Of a stretch of DNA of 64,000 nucleotides, positions 15,001-21,000 are shown piece after piece. Where the stretch lies: contig JAURQX010000040.1 of the NCBI GenBank assembly GCA_030835905.1, positions 299 to 64,298 of the forward strand. The letters run 5' to 3'. The position numbers are program-made. Source of the stretch: Alphaproteobacteria bacterium. Its GTDB lineage: Bacteria > Pseudomonadota > Alphaproteobacteria > Rickettsiales > UBA1997. Each line of letters starts with the position of its first letter. Position 1 is the stretch's first letter.

Positions 15001-18000
15001 CAATATCGCACGATCTTGAGGTAGTTAAATTAATTTCTGGAAAAATAGTTGAAATTTCAGTTTCTAAAATTCAAGATCATTTTTTTTAAAAAAACTTAAA
15101 ATTTATGAATTACAAAAATACAAATAGAGCTTTTTCTCTTATAGAGTTATCAATTGTAATTTTGATAATAGGTTTGCTGATTGCTGGCATAACTAAAGGA
15201 TCAGAGCTTTATTACAAGATGAAAATTGCAACCGCTCAAAGGTCTGATAATGACTTAACCTTTCATCTAAATTATATAGGTGGTGTTTCTTTAAGATTAG
15301 ATGCTTTAAATCAAGACAGCTTCAATCAAAATGAAGTTAGTGATGGTTCAAGAATCACTAACTGGTATGATGTAAAGCCAGAAGAAAATGGCGCTCCCAT
15401 AAATTTGTCGCAGTCAGGTAATTCAAGACCTTATTACAAAAAAAATGGAGTTAACGGGCTTCCTTCGGTTAAGTTTAAAGGTGGTGGAGCAACTAATATT
15501 AAAAAGACTAACTTAAGCGCTGAAGATTTAGTTGGCAATAGATACGCAACTATTTTCATTGTGCAAAATAGGTTGGCTGGTGGTGCTAATATTTTTCGTT
15601 GGGACGACGGTCAAAAAAGAATTTCTCTTGGAGGTGCAAGATCTACCTCGCCATATATGTGGTTTGATTATGGTATATATCCAGTTAGCGTTCCGAATCA
15701 AAGTATTACTATTGCTAACAATCCAATCTCTAGTTTAATTTCGGTTGATGCAAATAATCTTCCTGTTGACGCCATTGGTAAGCCTCACATCTTGGCATTA
15801 CTAAAAAACGGCAATCTGCTTAAAATCAGATATGATGGTCAATTTATTGCAGGAGTTGACTCTGGTGCAACTGCGCAAGTTGAAGGAACTAGAGCCGGTT
15901 TATTTGAAATTGGTCAAGATTTTGACGGCCTAATTGGTGAGTTTGTAGTTTTTAATAAGGCTTTATCAACGGCCGAAATCAAAAAAATCGAAGGTTACCT
16001 AGGTCAAAAATGGGGTATTGAAGTTATTCATTAATTGAATGATATAAAAACAATCCTAAATTTGCTTTTTCATTAAAATTTTTAGTCAAAAAATGAAAGA
16101 AAAAGTAAATCTCAAAAAGCCCGAACTCCTCTTGCCAGCTGGCAATTTAACTCGTCTTAAAACTGCAATTCTTTATGGGGCAGATGCGGTTTACCTTGGA
16201 ACGCCTGATATGTCGCTACGCACCAAATCTGCTTTTACTTTGGAAGATGTGATTGAAGGTATAGAATATGCTCATCAATTTGGTAAAAAAGTCTATCTTA
16301 CGCTTAATCTTTTTTCGCATAATAAAGATATTGAAAAATTGCCGCAATTTTTAGAAACAGTTAAAAAAGTTAAGCCAGATGGTTTGATTGTTTCTGATCC
16401 GGGGGTTTTTCAATTTTGCAAAAGTCATGCTCCAGAAATTGAATTGCACATTTCAACGCAAGCCAATGTTTGCTCATGGTTAACGGTAGATTTTTGGCAA
16501 AAACAAGGTGCTTCTTTGGTGGTAATGGCAAGAGAAGTTTCGTTTGAAGAGTTGGCCGAAATTCGCAATAAATGTCCAAATATAAAAATCGAAACTTTCA
16601 TTCATGGCTCAATGTGCATGACCTATTCGGGTCGTTGCTTATTATCTAACTTTTTGGCTGAAAGAGGTGCAAATCAGGGAAGTTGCGCTCATTCTTGTCG
16701 TTGGGGCTATAAATTAAAAATTAAACTTAAAGATAACACTGAGCATGAAATTGAAGTTAATGAGGATAATAAAGAGCTTTTTGATTTCTTTTTAGAAGAA
16801 GAAATTCGTCCAGGACAACTTATACCATTTGAAGAAGATGTGAGTGGTTCATATATTTTAAATTCTAAAGATTTGTGCTTATTACCTAAGCTTGATGAAT
16901 ATATCAAAATTGGTCTTGATTCGTTCAAAGTTGAAGGTCGTAACAAAACCGAGTTTTACGCTGGTTCTGTGGCAAGAGTTTACCGTGCAGCAATTGATGA
17001 TTATTTAGCTGATCCAAAGAGCTGGAATCATCAAGATTATATGGCAGAAATTAATGCTGTAGCCAATCGTGGTTATACTTTGGCTTTTCATGATGGCAGA
17101 TTAACCAATTTAGCTCATGATTACGAAAGTACTGGCTCGACTTCTTTTTATGAGTTTGCTGGTCGCGTGGTTGAATGGCAAGAGGATGATTTAATTTTCG
17201 AAGCTAAAAATATGTTGCAAGCTGGTGATGTTTTAGAGTTTTTATCACCTTTTCAAAGACAACCAATTTTACTTAGAATTTATCAATTCATTAATGCTAA
17301 AACTGGTGAAGTAACTGATAAAATTCATGCTGGCGTGAAGCCACAAATTAGAATTAACGCTTCAGAGTTTCATTTAATTGCTAGGGAAGATTTAAAGAAA
17401 TCACTGCCTGAATTTAGCTTAATTCGTAAAGAAAGATTAAATATTGAAAGTGAAAAACTAAAAGTAGAATCAAGAAACTTATCGCACCAACTAGAAGCAG
17501 GAGAAATTAAAGAGCAAAAATATGATGATAAGAAAAAGAGATATTTTGAAAGCTTAAAGATTGCTGATGATAAAATATGCCCAAGAACTCCAAGAATAGG
17601 AGTCGAAGGTTGTTGTGGCAAGGGTTGTAATGGCTGTTTAATTTTTTGGCATGATGAAAAATATTCCAAAGCTCGACAGCTCATGAAAGACAAAAAAATT
17701 GGCGAGATGCTGTAAATATTTTTTTGAGACTAAATAACAATTCTATAAACTATCAGGAAGAGATAATTGTAATTTAGATTTTAGTTGCTAAAGTACTATA
17801 GATTTGACCAAACACTAATAATCCAGTCTTTGTATATGCTAAATATACCTAGTCTTTTAAGCAAAAAATCATTAAAAAATTAAGCATTGAATATTGATGA
17901 TACAGGTTTAATTCTTCAATAATCTTTTTTACAAACTCCAAATTATCTATCTAATATACAAGGGTTGGATTTGGGGTAGCAATAAAAATTTCTAACTTAT

Positions 18001-21000
18001 GATAAAAAATCAAAATAAAGCTTTTTCTTTAATCGAGCTTTCAATTGTAATTCTGATAATTGGTTTGCTAGTTGCTGGAATTGTAAAGGGTCAAGGACTA
18101 TATAATAAAATGAAAATTATTAGTGCTGCATCGCTTACTAATAACTCAGTTGTTAACTCAATTCCTAACCTGGATGCATGGTATGAGACAACTGCTTCTA
18201 AAAGCTTTAATAGTAGTGATTTACAAGATGGGGGTCAAATTAATAATTGGTACGATATTAATCCGACGATGTCGGAAAAGAAAAATCTAGCTAAATATTC
18301 AGCATCTTATAATCTGCCAACTTACAAAAAAAATTGTATTAACGGGTTGCCATGTGTTGATTTTAATGGTATTGACCAATGCCTACTATCCAATAACAAA
18401 ATTAATATTGTTGGAGCTACCACAGGAACTATTTTTGTTGTCGGGCAAACAAGGGAAGGTGTTGTTGGAAATACCGCTTTATACATTGGTCCAACCTCAG
18501 GATCAGTAGCTCGAAGGCAAATAGTCTTAGATTTTAGTAAAGATGATGAATCGGGTAATGAAAATGCTGGTATATCTGGCTATCGTTTTATTGGTTCAAA
18601 TTATATTTTCAATAAGCCATTTAACGATCAAGATTTTATATCTACTTGGTCTTGGTCAAGTCCAGATGTTAGTAATGATAATTTTAACCTCTATATTAAT
18701 GGCGTTGCTCAGACAAAGCATAGTAGTACAATTCTAGGAGGTAAATTGAACATTGCTAATCACAAATTTACTATTGGAGCTTCTCATAATAGAGTTACAG
18801 GCAATGCATGTACTAGTTTTTTTAATGGCAGTATCGCAGAGATAATTATTTTTAGAAAAAACCTTAGAACTGCGCAAAGAAAATCAGTTGAGAAGTACCT
18901 ATCTCAAAAATACGGCATCTCAGTAACTCACTAAGATTAAAAGTACAAAAAAACTATAAACTATCCTTGTTTTCTCTGGAATTATACCAACTTCAGGTGA
19001 AAAAGATGAAGGATTAATGTGCTAAAAATATAACAGATGGAACAGATGGGACCTTGTGTTATTGGCACTATCTTTTAATAAATGGGTTAATAATTATAAA
19101 AAAGGTTTTTGATGGAAATAGTATTAAATTTTAGTGAGTAACTGCAATATTATATTTTTGTGATAAATATTTTTCTACATTTTGTCTTTCTGAATTTTTT
19201 AAGAATCGGTTGAATATTATTATCTCAGAAATTTGACCATTATAATAACTAGAGCAATTTTGGCCACTTAGTTCAGAGCCAACAACCAAAAAGTTATTTA
19301 TTAGTTTTATGGAATTAACATTAGTTCTTGAGGTTGGTGATTGTAGTATGCCATTTACATATAAATTATAATTACTTTCTGAAGTAGCATTGCTCCAAGT
19401 CCATGTTGAAATAAAAGGTTGATCATTAAATACTTCATCATATATGATCGATGCGCCGCCAAATCTTATACCAGTTACTCCTGGTTGAGCACCAACACCT
19501 CCTTGATTAATATCTATCCATAATTTTGAATAAGTTGCAGTACTATTATTACCAAGCCATAATGCATAAGTATACTCAACTTTTGATCTAGTTTTTCCTA
19601 CAATAAAAACTGTGCCAGGGCTTGATCCTTGGATATCTGGTGTTTTTTCACCTACAAAACACTCAAAGTGCCATTAAAGTCAACACATGGCAAACCATTA
19701 ATACAATTCTTGGTATAATCAGGTAGATTGCCAGTACCAAAATTATTTTTACCGAGATTTAATTTGCTGCTTCTTGTAGGATTTATATCTCTCCAAATGC
19801 TTAAATCTTGACCATCAAATAGGTTATCTTGGTAAAAACTTTCAGTTGATGTTGTCTCATACCAAGCATTTAAATTTGATATCGCAGCAACAATTGAATT
19901 ATTAGTAAGCGATGCAACGCTACTTATTTTCATTTTATTATAAAGGTCTTGACCTTTTACAATGCCAGCAACTAACAAACCAATTATCAAAATTACTATT
20001 GAAAGCTCAATTAAAGAAAAAGTTTTTTTTAGATTCTTTATCATAAAGTTAAAATGGTATTAGTTGTTAATTAATAGCTGTGTTAGTAAATAATTATTAC
20101 TCGTATTTGCAACAATAACTTATTTAAATTAGATTCGTAAAGTGTTGACTAATAAAGATTTAGCATTTCATCAAAGGTTGGCCTTTTTCTAATAACTGAC
20201 AATTTCTCGCCATCAACTAAAATTTCAGGAATTAATGGTCGGCAATTGTATTGATTAGACATCGAGCTGCCATAAGCACCAGAGTCAAGAAATGCCACTA
20301 AATCGCCAGCTTTTAATTCTGATAATTGGCGATTTTTAGCTAAAATATCAGTGGTTTCACAAACTGGACCCGCAAAATCATAAGTTACTTTTCTATTTTC
20401 TTCCTTAATTATTGGCAAAGTTTGGTGATAAGCATCATAAAGCCCAGGGCGCGCTAAATCATTCATACCAGCGTCAATTATCGCAAAATTTTTGCTAGCA
20501 GTTTCTTTAATATAAGTTACTTCACTAACCAAAATTCCAGCATTAGCAATCATTGATCTTCCAGGTGCTAAAGTAACTTTAACATCTAAATCTTGGGTTA
20601 AATCTTTGATGATTTTTATATAGTCAACAATTTCAAAAAGTTCTTCATCTTTATATTTTATGCCAATACCACCACCAAAATCTAGATTTTTAATATTATG
20701 ACCTTGTTTTTTTAGTTCCAAACAAAGCTCTCTGATTTTTAGAAATGCTAGTTTAAAAGGTTCAAGAGTTGTAATTTGAGAGCCAATATGGGTTGAAATG
20801 CCATAAATTTCCAAACCACTTAATTTTGAAGCTTCTTGATAAATTTCTTGAGCTAAATTGATATCTACACCAAATTTATCACTTTTACGACCAGTAGAAA
20901 TTTTGTCATGAGTTTTGGCGTCAACATCAGGGTTAACTCGAAGCATAAATTTAGCTTTCTTTCTTAAACTAATTGCCACTTCGTTAAGTAAATGCATTTC

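What the first reader, a model, noticed from the sequence alone, without database searches (positions are those of the whole stretch)
15105..20044. Expanded family of pilin-like LamG proteins with a non-canonical -1 residue and no assembly genes nearby
Three paralogues lie within 5 kb (15105..16034, 17999..18934 and 19131..20044). All start with a short Lys/Asn leader followed by [AT]-F-S-L-I-E-L-S-I-V-I-L-I-I-G-L-L, and all end in a LamG-like jelly-roll domain. F+1 and E+5 are canonical for type IV pilins and T2SS pseudopilins. Position -1 is Ala (Thr in the broken copy), whereas PilD-type peptidases normally require Gly. The window contains no pilB/C/D/Q or gsp genes. A housekeeping U32 gene sits in the middle of the cluster.
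Basis: partly seen in the sequence, partly recalled or inferred. Interest (0 to 1): 0.7.

Follow-up and report, generated by a model that had tools for sequence, protein, structure and literature searches.

The report
LamG-headed type IV pilin paralogues
Three neighbouring genes (one broken) encode proteins that start like pilus subunits and end in a sugar-binding-type LamG domain; they belong to a large uncharacterised family in uncultured freshwater alphaproteobacteria, are most likely adhesive pilus subunits, and are a new example of a known protein design rather than a new system.

Summary
Two intact genes (15105-16034 and 17999-18934) and one frameshifted gene (19131-20044, minus strand) share a prepilin-type N-terminus: a leader of 8-9 residues, then Ala or Thr, then FSLIELSIVILIIGLL. 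Both intact copies are predicted to form a long helix followed by a LamG/ConA-like jelly roll.

- Ala at -1 is not non-canonical. Reviews define the leader as ending in Gly or Ala, and ComG pilins all end in Ala. Here Ala is a family trait (108 of 116 N-termini).
[quoted passage not shown] Streptococcus sanguinis PilC is the characterised example.
- The window has no assembly genes, and neither do 78 related loci. However, relatives carry a well-conserved PilC/GspF platform gene in a fixed def-pilC-bioD housekeeping neighbourhood, so the machinery genes are dispersed rather than absent.

The family is large: 619 word-index hits, up to 11 copies per MAG in the DNA sampled, and tandem arrays. 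The N-terminus is conserved and the sandwich core is highly variable.

Most likely these are glycan-binding pilus subunits. Cleavage, assembly and ligand are untested, and the rest of this genome could not be searched.

The parts
15105..16034 (+). Paralogue 1, intact, 309 aa. It has a 9-residue leader (MNYKNTNRA), predicted cleavage before F10, Glu at +5, a helix at residues 12-58, a beta-sandwich at about 61-283 and a C-terminal helix at 289-303. It lacks the CxxxxPC pair and has a unique low-confidence insert at residues 181-219. It starts 15 nt after the stop of the ABC ATPase gene.
15105..15194 (+). Class III (prepilin-type) signal peptide of paralogue 1: the leader plus the 21-residue hydrophobic alpha1N.
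   Evidence: N_methyl 23.7 bits against cutoff 21.2; TIGR02532 22.1 against 16.3
16093..17715 (+). U32-family gene, closest to the tRNA U34 hydroxylase TrhP. It is a housekeeping gene lying between paralogues 1 and 2 and is not part of the pilin family. Its orthologue (74% identity) also adjoins a family member in L077.
17999..18934 (+). Paralogue 2, intact, 311 aa. It has an 8-residue leader (MIKNQNKA), F9 at +1 and E13 at +5, a helix at residues 11-48, a LamG-like sandwich at about 58-285 and a C-terminal helix at 291-305. It is 34% identical to paralogue 1.
17999..18085 (+). Class III signal peptide of paralogue 2.
   Evidence: N_methyl 23.9 bits; TIGR02532 21.6 bits
19131..20044 (-). Paralogue 3, broken. 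The N-terminal 124 residues are 70% identical to paralogue 2 and carry Thr at -1. After one frameshift, 185 residues (38% identical to paralogue 2) read through in another frame to the normal C-terminus.
19664..19672 (-). Approximate site of the single frameshift in paralogue 3 (sequence GGCACTTTGAGTGTTTTG). There is no long homopolymer, so it does not look like a phase-variation tract.

Best explanation
These genes encode modular type IV pilins, that is, subunits of a type IV filament in which the usual globular pilin head is replaced by a LamG/ConA-like lectin jelly roll.

Inferred mechanism:
1. The preprotein is inserted in the inner membrane with its short basic leader in the cytoplasm.
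2. A prepilin peptidase cuts after Ala-1 and probably methylates Phe+1.
3. The conserved alpha1N helix with Glu+5 lets the subunit be taken up by a PilC/GspF platform and its ATPase into a filament.
4. The LamG module is displayed on the filament, most plausibly at or near the tip, and binds glycans or other surface ligands of a host, prey or particle.

The many paralogues keep the assembly parts constant (alpha1N and the C-terminal helix) and vary the sandwich core, which would give a repertoire of binding specificities. Paralogue 3 is a decaying copy.

Shown here: the signal-peptide motif, the helix-plus-LamG fold (predicted), the family's size, conservation pattern and dispersal, and the presence of a conserved platform gene in related genomes.

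Inferred only: cleavage, methylation, assembly into a filament, position in the filament, and the ligand.
For: Pilin signature:
- N_methyl and TIGR02532 score above their curated cutoffs for both intact copies.
- F+1, S+2, L+3, E+5 and G+14 are invariant in both alignments (27 and 40 sequences), and Ala-1 is at least 90% conserved.
- Across 98 full-length copies, mean column conservation is 0.87 in alpha1N, 0.22 in the sandwich core and 0.59 at the C-terminus. A plain membrane anchor would not need an invariant acidic residue in the bilayer.
- Leaders are mostly 6-9 residues long, as in T4a-type pilins.

Fold:
- AlphaFold2 predicts a 38-47 residue N-terminal helix followed by a beta-sandwich.
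- Foldseek matches lectin and receptor-binding jelly rolls, including the characterised lectin pilin PilC of S. sanguinis (7oa8, E 1.3e-5) (profile hit 7oa7).

Precedent in the literature:
- The ConA-like module of PilC binds glycans, and modelling predicts a location at the pilus tip (PMC9934059).
- A leader ending in Ala lies within the definition and is processed in ComG pilins (PMC10191384, PMC7212644).

Machinery in the lineage:
- Window housekeeping proteins are 50-83% identical to those of the MAGs that carry the family.
- Those MAGs encode a full-length PilC/GspF protein (258-268 bits to GspF, 183-229 bits to PilC models), with 1751 relatives at E<1e-20 and the 120 best cluster representatives 64-100% identical.
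- The platform gene sits in a conserved def-pilC-bioD(-argB) context, with purN just upstream in three of the contexts.
- In one contig it lies about 10 kb from a family member.

Background: T4P genes are reported in environmental Rickettsiales and proposed to serve host attachment (PMC9352585).
Against: - No prepilin peptidase, extension ATPase or secretin was seen in the window or in about 1.1 Mb of related loci. The rest of this genome could not be searched.
- The platform protein cannot be assigned to T4aP rather than T2SS, because all equivalog scores are below their cutoffs.
- No conventional short major pilin was found in the sampled DNA, so the identity of the filament body is unknown.
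- Laminin_G_3 is below Pfam's cutoff in the window copies.
- No ligand-binding residues were examined.
- In a diderm cell, a roughly 31 kDa subunit must pass a secretin.
Confidence: 0.6

Rival explanations
1. The proteins are pseudopilin-like components or cargo-presenting subunits of a type II secretion-type endopilus. They would act in the periplasm or at the secretin rather than on a long external pilus.
For: The lineage's platform protein scores slightly better against GspF (258-268 bits) than against PilC models (183-229 bits). Weak sub-threshold N-terminal matches to GspG and GspH were found.
Against: All GspG/H/I/J/K equivalog scores are far below their cutoffs (13-16 bits against 80-89) and cover only the shared N-terminal helix. 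No gspC-M cluster, GspD or GspE was seen anywhere in the sampled DNA. A solitary platform gene amid housekeeping genes and scattered pilin genes fit T4aP-style organisation (PMC10191384). Ten or more variable lectin-headed paralogues have no known role in a T2SS.
Confidence: 0.1
2. The proteins are unprocessed, bitopic inner-membrane proteins. The pilin-like N-terminus now serves only as a membrane anchor that holds a LamG domain in the periplasm, for example because the filament machinery was lost in this reduced genome.
For: No peptidase or ATPase was found in the window or in the related loci. The genes sit singly among housekeeping genes with no conserved partner gene. About 8 of 106 evaluable copies in relatives are broken, and short fragments are common.
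Against: F+1, E+5 and G+14 are invariant, Ala-1 is about 95% conserved and alpha1N conservation is 0.87 across the copies. That pattern indicates selection for peptidase recognition and filament packing rather than mere hydrophobicity. The PilC/GspF platform is strongly conserved in the lineage. The one copy with Thr at -1 is also the frameshifted one.
Confidence: 0.15
3. The ORFs are chance features or annotation artefacts, or the similarity is confined to a low-complexity hydrophobic stretch.
For: The genome is AT-rich (about 31% GC), which produces many spurious ORFs.
Against: Paralogues 1 and 2 are homologous over their full length (E 1.5e-37). There are 619 database relatives with 97-100% coverage among the listed full-length hits. 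Blocks outside the N-terminus are conserved. The structure models are confident.
Confidence: 0.01

Closest known systems
Modular type IV pilins with a lectin module, exemplified by Streptococcus sanguinis minor pilin PilC (PDB 7oa7/7oa8; PMC9934059) and by the IPR012902 + PF13385 architecture catalogued in PMC8179133
   Same: Both have a class III signal peptide followed by a ConA/LamG-superfamily beta-sandwich. Foldseek probability is 1.0 to 7oa8 and there is a weak profile match to 7oa7. Both have a short pilin moiety, and both are expected to act in adhesion to glycans.
   Different: There is no sequence relationship beyond the domain superfamily (E 0.22). The window proteins are about 300 aa with the helix running directly into the LamG domain, whereas PilC is 52.8 kDa with a small pilin moiety, an Ig-like module and then the lectin module. 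The host here is a diderm alphaproteobacterium rather than a monoderm. The genes are multi-copy and dispersed rather than a single gene inside a pil locus. The -1 residue is Ala.
ComG competence pilins of Bacilli (ComGC-GG)
   Same: The leader peptide ends in a conserved Ala-1 and is followed by a hydrophobic alpha1N (Glu5 is present in all but ComGG); these pilins are processed by a prepilin peptidase (PMC7212644).
   Different: ComG pilins are small (about 90-150 aa), have no LamG module, are encoded within one operon together with their machinery, and function in DNA uptake. The NCBIfam ComGC model scores only 11-19 bits against a cutoff of 75.
Laminin_G_3 (PF13385) repeat giants, including a few with prepilin-type N-termini
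   Same: The family's module from about residue 55 to 292, including the C-terminal 'ER..VE.YL..KWG' helix, matches 4-25 tandem repeats per protein in the 149 proteins of 1198-7093 aa among the 150 best hits. P0243, P0255 and P0274 begin with GFSL(V/T)E prepilin-like signals and contain Laminin_G_3 above the Pfam cutoff.
   Different: Those proteins are multi-repeat giants, mostly with ordinary signal peptides, and carry Gly at -1 where they are pilin-like. The window proteins have a single module.
T2SS pseudopilins GspG/H/I/J/K
   Same: They share the prepilin-type N-terminus with F+1 and E+5.
   Different: Equivalog models fail by a wide margin, the proteins have no pseudopilin head domain, and no gsp operon is present.

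Membership tests
Type IV pilin / class III signal peptide proteins (PF07963, TIGR02532, IPR012902) | Short hydrophilic leader ending in Gly or Ala | tested here: met
   The leaders are MNYKNTNRA and MIKNQNKA and both end in Ala. The definition follows PMC10191384 and PMC7212644. The broken copy has Thr, which lies outside the definition.
Type IV pilin / class III signal peptide proteins (PF07963, TIGR02532, IPR012902) | About 21 hydrophobic residues after the cleavage site, with Phe+1 and Glu+5 | tested here: met
   The sequence is FSLIELSIVILIIGLL(I/V)AGI. F, E and G14 are invariant in both family alignments.
Type IV pilin / class III signal peptide proteins (PF07963, TIGR02532, IPR012902) | HMM score above the curated cutoff | tested here: met
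   PF07963 scores 23.7 and 23.9 against 21.2. TIGR02532 scores 22.1 and 21.6 against 16.3. The copy 3 fragment scores 18.8 and 16.0, just below both cutoffs.
Type IV pilin / class III signal peptide proteins (PF07963, TIGR02532, IPR012902) | Extended N-terminal alpha1 helix of about 50 residues | tested here: met
   AlphaFold2 predicts helices at 11-48 (copy 2) and 12-58 (copy 1), with block-mean pLDDT of 84-96 over these helices. This is a prediction only.
Type IV pilin / class III signal peptide proteins (PF07963, TIGR02532, IPR012902) | Cleavage and N-methylation by a prepilin peptidase | not testable with these tools
   This needs N-terminal proteomics or a co-expression assay. No Peptidase_A24 gene was found in the window or in the related loci.
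Type IV pilin / class III signal peptide proteins (PF07963, TIGR02532, IPR012902) | Type IV filament assembly machinery encoded in the same genome | tested here: inconclusive
   None is present in the 64 kb window. Related MAGs have a conserved PilC/GspF gene.
LamG / ConA-like lectin-glucanase superfamily (PF13385 Laminin_G_3) | Pfam score above the gathering cutoff | tested here: not met
   The window copies score 18.1 and 23.1 bits against 27.6. However, 26 of 40 family members match at E<=1e-3 (best 1e-11), and the family profile matches Laminin_G_3 repeat proteins.
LamG / ConA-like lectin-glucanase superfamily (PF13385 Laminin_G_3) | Two-sheet jelly-roll beta-sandwich fold | tested here: met
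   The models have pTM 0.83 and 0.76. Foldseek gives probability 1.0 and E-values from about 1e-8 to 1e-6 for the best matches to the trans-sialidase lectin domain, AbnA domain 4, CBM40, BoNT Hc and PilC 7oa8. A profile-versus-PDB search hits 4qvs and sialidase lectin domains.
LamG / ConA-like lectin-glucanase superfamily (PF13385 Laminin_G_3) | Carbohydrate or Ca2+ binding site | not tested
   No binding residues were examined, and the sandwich core is the most variable part of the family.
T2SS pseudopilins (GspG, GspH equivalogs) | Equivalog HMM above the cutoff over the whole protein | tested here: not met
   GspG scores 13-16 bits against 88.85 and GspH 14-15 against 80. Only the N-terminal helix aligns.
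S. sanguinis PilC-type lectin pilin | Sequence homology over the pilin, Ig and lectin modules | tested here: not met
   Only the lectin module aligns, with profile E 0.22 and Foldseek E 1.3e-5 at 11% identity. There is no Ig-like module. The design is the same but the family is different.

The most novel reading that the evidence does not exclude
In this streamlined, possibly host-associated freshwater alphaproteobacterial lineage, the LamG-headed proteins may not be rare tip pilins. They may be the main or interchangeable building blocks of the type IV filament. No conventional short pilin was seen in the sampled DNA. The ten or more hypervariable paralogues per roughly 1 Mb genome would then form a switchable repertoire for host or prey recognition or for evading phages and grazers, matched to a peptidase that prefers Ala at -1.
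Probability: 0.12. Interest if true: 0.65.

Novelty: new member of a known kind. Interest (0 to 1): 0.35.

Why it matters
If these proteins are displayed on pili, they are the likely attachment molecules of an abundant, uncultured group of small-genome freshwater alphaproteobacteria. Most of these MAGs are labelled Rickettsiales, and this window also encodes giant ankyrin-repeat and IQ-motif proteins. A lineage with genomes of about 1 Mb that keeps up to 11 or more variable lectin-pilin genes is investing heavily in surface recognition. That makes the family a concrete handle for asking what these cells attach to. The family also extends the modular-pilin concept, so far characterised only in a Gram-positive pathogen, to diderm environmental bacteria. 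It does not reveal a new mechanism.

Tried and rejected
1. tblastn of E. coli GspC/D/E/F/G/K/L/O, HofB/C and PpdD against the window and 82 related loci, at E<=1e-3 and again at E<=5, plus regex searches for the A24 GxGD motif, the PilB Walker A motif and the His box. The only real hit was a GspF/HofC homologue in L076.

2. Clustering of 889 neighbouring ORFs from 78 loci to look for a conserved partner gene. None was found. The next largest cluster is a generic ABC ATPase present in 10 loci.

3. A 42-residue N-terminal consensus used as a database query to look for conventional short pilins with the same N-terminus. It returned only fragments of 43-74 aa, and the 14 that were read carry the family's N-terminus.

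4. A promoter and terminator scan of 13500-20400. The number of sites was no higher than in shuffled sequence, so it is uninformative.

5. Phase variation as the cause of the frameshift in copy 3. This was rejected because there is no long homopolymer or repeat at the site.

6. The DUF4183 hit in copy 2 (25.7 bits against 25.1, one of 40 members). It was treated as a marginal overlap with the LamG region.

7. Organism identification through cluster names. No names were returned. The species-representative genome scan did not return this contig, so the rest of the genome could not be inspected.

8. Three further look-ups around pilC homologues, to find pilB or pilD beside them. All showed the same housekeeping neighbourhood.

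
Full report
**Observation.** The region holds three homologous genes.
- Paralogue 1 (15105-16034, +, 309 aa) and paralogue 2 (17999-18934, +, 311 aa) are intact.
- Paralogue 3 lies on the minus strand. An ORF at 19652-20044 encodes its first 130 residues.
- tblastn with paralogue 2 shows that after a single frameshift near 19664-19672 the remaining 185 residues read on in another frame, without stops, to a normal C-terminus (...KYNIAVTH).
- The frameshift site has no long homopolymer. 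The same broken ORF is present in the ENA and Logan assemblies of this contig.
- All three start with a basic leader of 8-9 residues, then Ala (Thr in the broken copy), then FSLIELSIVILIIGLL. Paralogues 1 and 2 are 34% identical over their full length (E 1.5e-37).
- Paralogues 2 and 3 are 70% identical over the first 124 residues but only 38% identical over the rest.

**Domains and fold.**
- The N_methyl motif (PF07963) and TIGR02532 score above their curated cutoffs in both intact copies.
- Laminin_G_3 scores below Pfam's cutoff in the window copies (18.1 and 23.1 bits against 27.6). However, 26 of 40 family members match it at E<=1e-3.
- A family profile hits LamG-type lectin domains in the PDB, namely 4qvs and sialidase lectin/CBM40 domains, and weakly hits the S. 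sanguinis pilin PilC (7oa7).
- AlphaFold2 models are confident: pLDDT 83 / pTM 0.83 for paralogue 2 and 75 / 0.76 for paralogue 1. Each shows an N-terminal helix of 38-47 residues running directly into a beta-sandwich and ending in a short C-terminal helix. There is no separate pilin beta-sheet head.
- Foldseek returns ConA/LamG-type lectin and receptor-binding jelly rolls at probability 1.0. These include a cyanophage tailspike, AbnA domain 4, the trans-sialidase lectin domain, clostridial neurotoxin Hc, CBM40 and S. sanguinis PilC 7oa8.
- The LamG claim therefore holds at the fold level, although the strict Pfam membership test is not met for these two sequences.

**The family.**
- Paralogue 2 has 619 relatives at E<=1e-3 in the word-indexed protein collection. 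The listed relatives are 277-320 aa long and nearly all cover 96-100% of the query (a few align over about half). Where they are named, they are called 'prepilin-type N-terminal cleavage/methylation domain-containing protein' or 'LamG-like jellyroll fold domain-containing protein', from Alphaproteobacteria or Rickettsiales MAGs.
- A scan of species-representative genomes confirmed 209 relative-encoding stretches, and the best 80 (78 loci) were kept. They lie in 42 MAGs, almost all from lakes and other fresh waters, and carry inconsistent automatic labels such as Rickettsiales bacterium, uncultured Rickettsia and 'Rhizobium sp.'.
- Within only the DNA sampled around those hits, single MAGs hold up to 11, 10 and 8 copies. 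Tandem arrays of 2-3 adjacent genes are common, and one 12 kb stretch holds five copies.
- Of 106 evaluable copies, 98 are intact and 8 are broken. Short N-terminal fragments of the family are common in the database. The family therefore turns over by birth and death, and the window's broken third copy fits that pattern.
- Across 98 full-length copies, column conservation is 0.87 in alpha1N, 0.55 in alpha1C, about 0.5-0.6 in a block containing W.E...SF...W.D.NP...P.Y...N.LP..F, 0.22 in the sandwich core and 0.59 in the C-terminal G.I.E.I...L...E....YL..K..I segment.
- An exhaustive profile search finds 5395 representatives at E<=1e-30. It also shows that the same module is repeated 4-25 times in giant proteins of 1198-7093 aa. 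A few of these begin with Gly-1 prepilin signals and contain Laminin_G_3 above the cutoff.

**The -1 residue.**
- In 116 pilin-type N-termini in the window and fetched loci, -1 is Ala in 108 and Gly in 5. It is Thr in 3, and all three are the window's broken copy seen in three assemblies. Ala is therefore a family trait.
- It is not outside the definition. Pelicic's 2023 review states that the leader 'invariably ends with ... [quoted passage not shown] All five ComG pilins of S. sanguinis end in Ala-1 and are processed by ComC (PMC7212644).
- From my own knowledge (Strom and Lory 1991, not checked here), P. aeruginosa PilD tolerates Ala but not larger residues at -1. That would make Thr-1 in the broken copy a second lesion.

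**Machinery.**
- The window has no pil or gsp genes. Pfam scans cover essentially all ORFs of at least 100 aa, and tblastn with E. coli Gsp and Hof proteins finds nothing.
- The same holds for about 1.1 Mb in 78 related loci, with one exception. L076 encodes a full-length GspF/PilC-family platform protein 4 kb from a family member, sitting between def and bioD.
- That protein has 1751 relatives at E<1e-20, and the 120 best cluster representatives are 64-100% identical to it. In every context examined it lies in the same def-pilC-bioD(-argB) neighbourhood, with purN just upstream in three of them. One of these contexts is a 954 kb contig, and another is a 70.8 kb contig where a family member lies about 10 kb away.
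- It scores 258-268 bits against GspF and 183-229 bits against PilC models, all below the equivalog cutoffs. It can therefore only be called a type IV filament platform protein.
- Window housekeeping proteins are 50-83% identical to those of these MAGs. Local synteny is shared, including a U32 orthologue (74% identity) next to a family member in L077. The window's organism therefore belongs to the same lineage.
- Clustering of 889 neighbouring ORFs finds no gene that travels with the family. The pilin genes are scattered among housekeeping genes.
- Scattered genes are the described organisation of T4aP systems (PMC10191384). T4P genes have been reported in environmental Rickettsiales and proposed to mediate host attachment (PMC9352585, PMC10847448).
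- Whether this genome has a prepilin peptidase and an ATPase remains untested.

**Interpretation.**
- The best reading is that these are modular type IV pilins. The constant parts are the leader, alpha1N with Glu+5, and the C-terminal helix. These serve peptidase recognition and filament assembly. The variable LamG sandwich serves ligand binding.
- The design is known. [quoted passage not shown] The ConA-like module of S. sanguinis PilC is a proven lectin, and modelling predicts it sits at the pilus tip (PMC9934059).
- The differences from PilC are as follows. There is no sequence relationship beyond the superfamily. The architecture is more compact, with the helix running straight into LamG. 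The host is a diderm. The genes are multi-copy and dispersed. Ala is fixed at -1.
- Two rivals cannot be excluded without the full genome or experiments. One is a T2SS-type role. The other is that the proteins remain as unprocessed membrane-anchored periplasmic proteins.
- The invariant Phe+1, Glu+5 and Gly+14 and the conserved platform gene argue against a mere anchor.

**Verdict.** The 'non-canonical' and 'orphan' aspects that made it look strange are explained by existing knowledge. This is a new, uncharacterised and strongly expanded member family of a known kind (lectin-type modular pilins). It has moderate ecological interest because of the lineage in which it is expanded.

Noticed in passing
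window 41705-46684 (-) and 47839-53457 (+): Two giant eukaryote-like proteins: a 1659 aa ankyrin-repeat protein and an 1872 aa protein with an IQ calmodulin-binding motif and a weak AAA match. They suggest a host-associated lifestyle for this low-GC (about 31%) organism.
   Followed up: partly
window 53863-54981, 55206-55793, 55910-58681 (all -): Three consecutive ORFs (372, 195 and 923 aa) have no Pfam match. They lie in a stretch with strongly negative AT skew, next to the giant proteins, and could be effectors or lineage-specific genes.
   Followed up: no
window 6013-6999 (+): A 328 aa Gly_rich_2 (PF21722) protein lies in a local GC bump (0.39 against about 0.31). It has no counterpart in the otherwise syntenic stretch of L031, so it looks like an insertion.
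   Followed up: partly
L076 14982-16175; L085 10001-11197; L087 1296-2492; L088 939-2135: The lineage's PilC/GspF platform gene sits alone in a conserved def-pilC-bioD(-argB) housekeeping neighbourhood, with purN just upstream where the locus extends that far. No other pilus genes lie within 10 kb.
   Followed up: yes
proteins P0243, P0255, P0274: Giant proteins of 2420-3863 aa start with a Gly-1 prepilin-type signal (GFSLVE or GFSLTE). The family profile matches 8-14 stretches in each, and Laminin_G_3 scores above its Pfam cutoff in P0243 and P0274 (P0255 not scanned). They look like 'mega-pilins'. Their source organisms are unknown.
   Followed up: partly
L005, L010, L015, L016, L023 and other loci: Family members often form tandem arrays: 2-3 adjacent genes, and up to five copies within 12 kb. 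About 8 of 106 copies are broken, and database fragments of 43-74 aa are common. This indicates rapid gene turnover.
   Followed up: yes
window 15089-15105: Paralogue 1 starts only 15 nt after the stop of a double ABC-ATPase gene (13677-15089) and ends 58 nt before the U32 gene. It may therefore be co-transcribed with housekeeping genes. The promoter scan gave no signal above shuffled sequence.
   Followed up: partly
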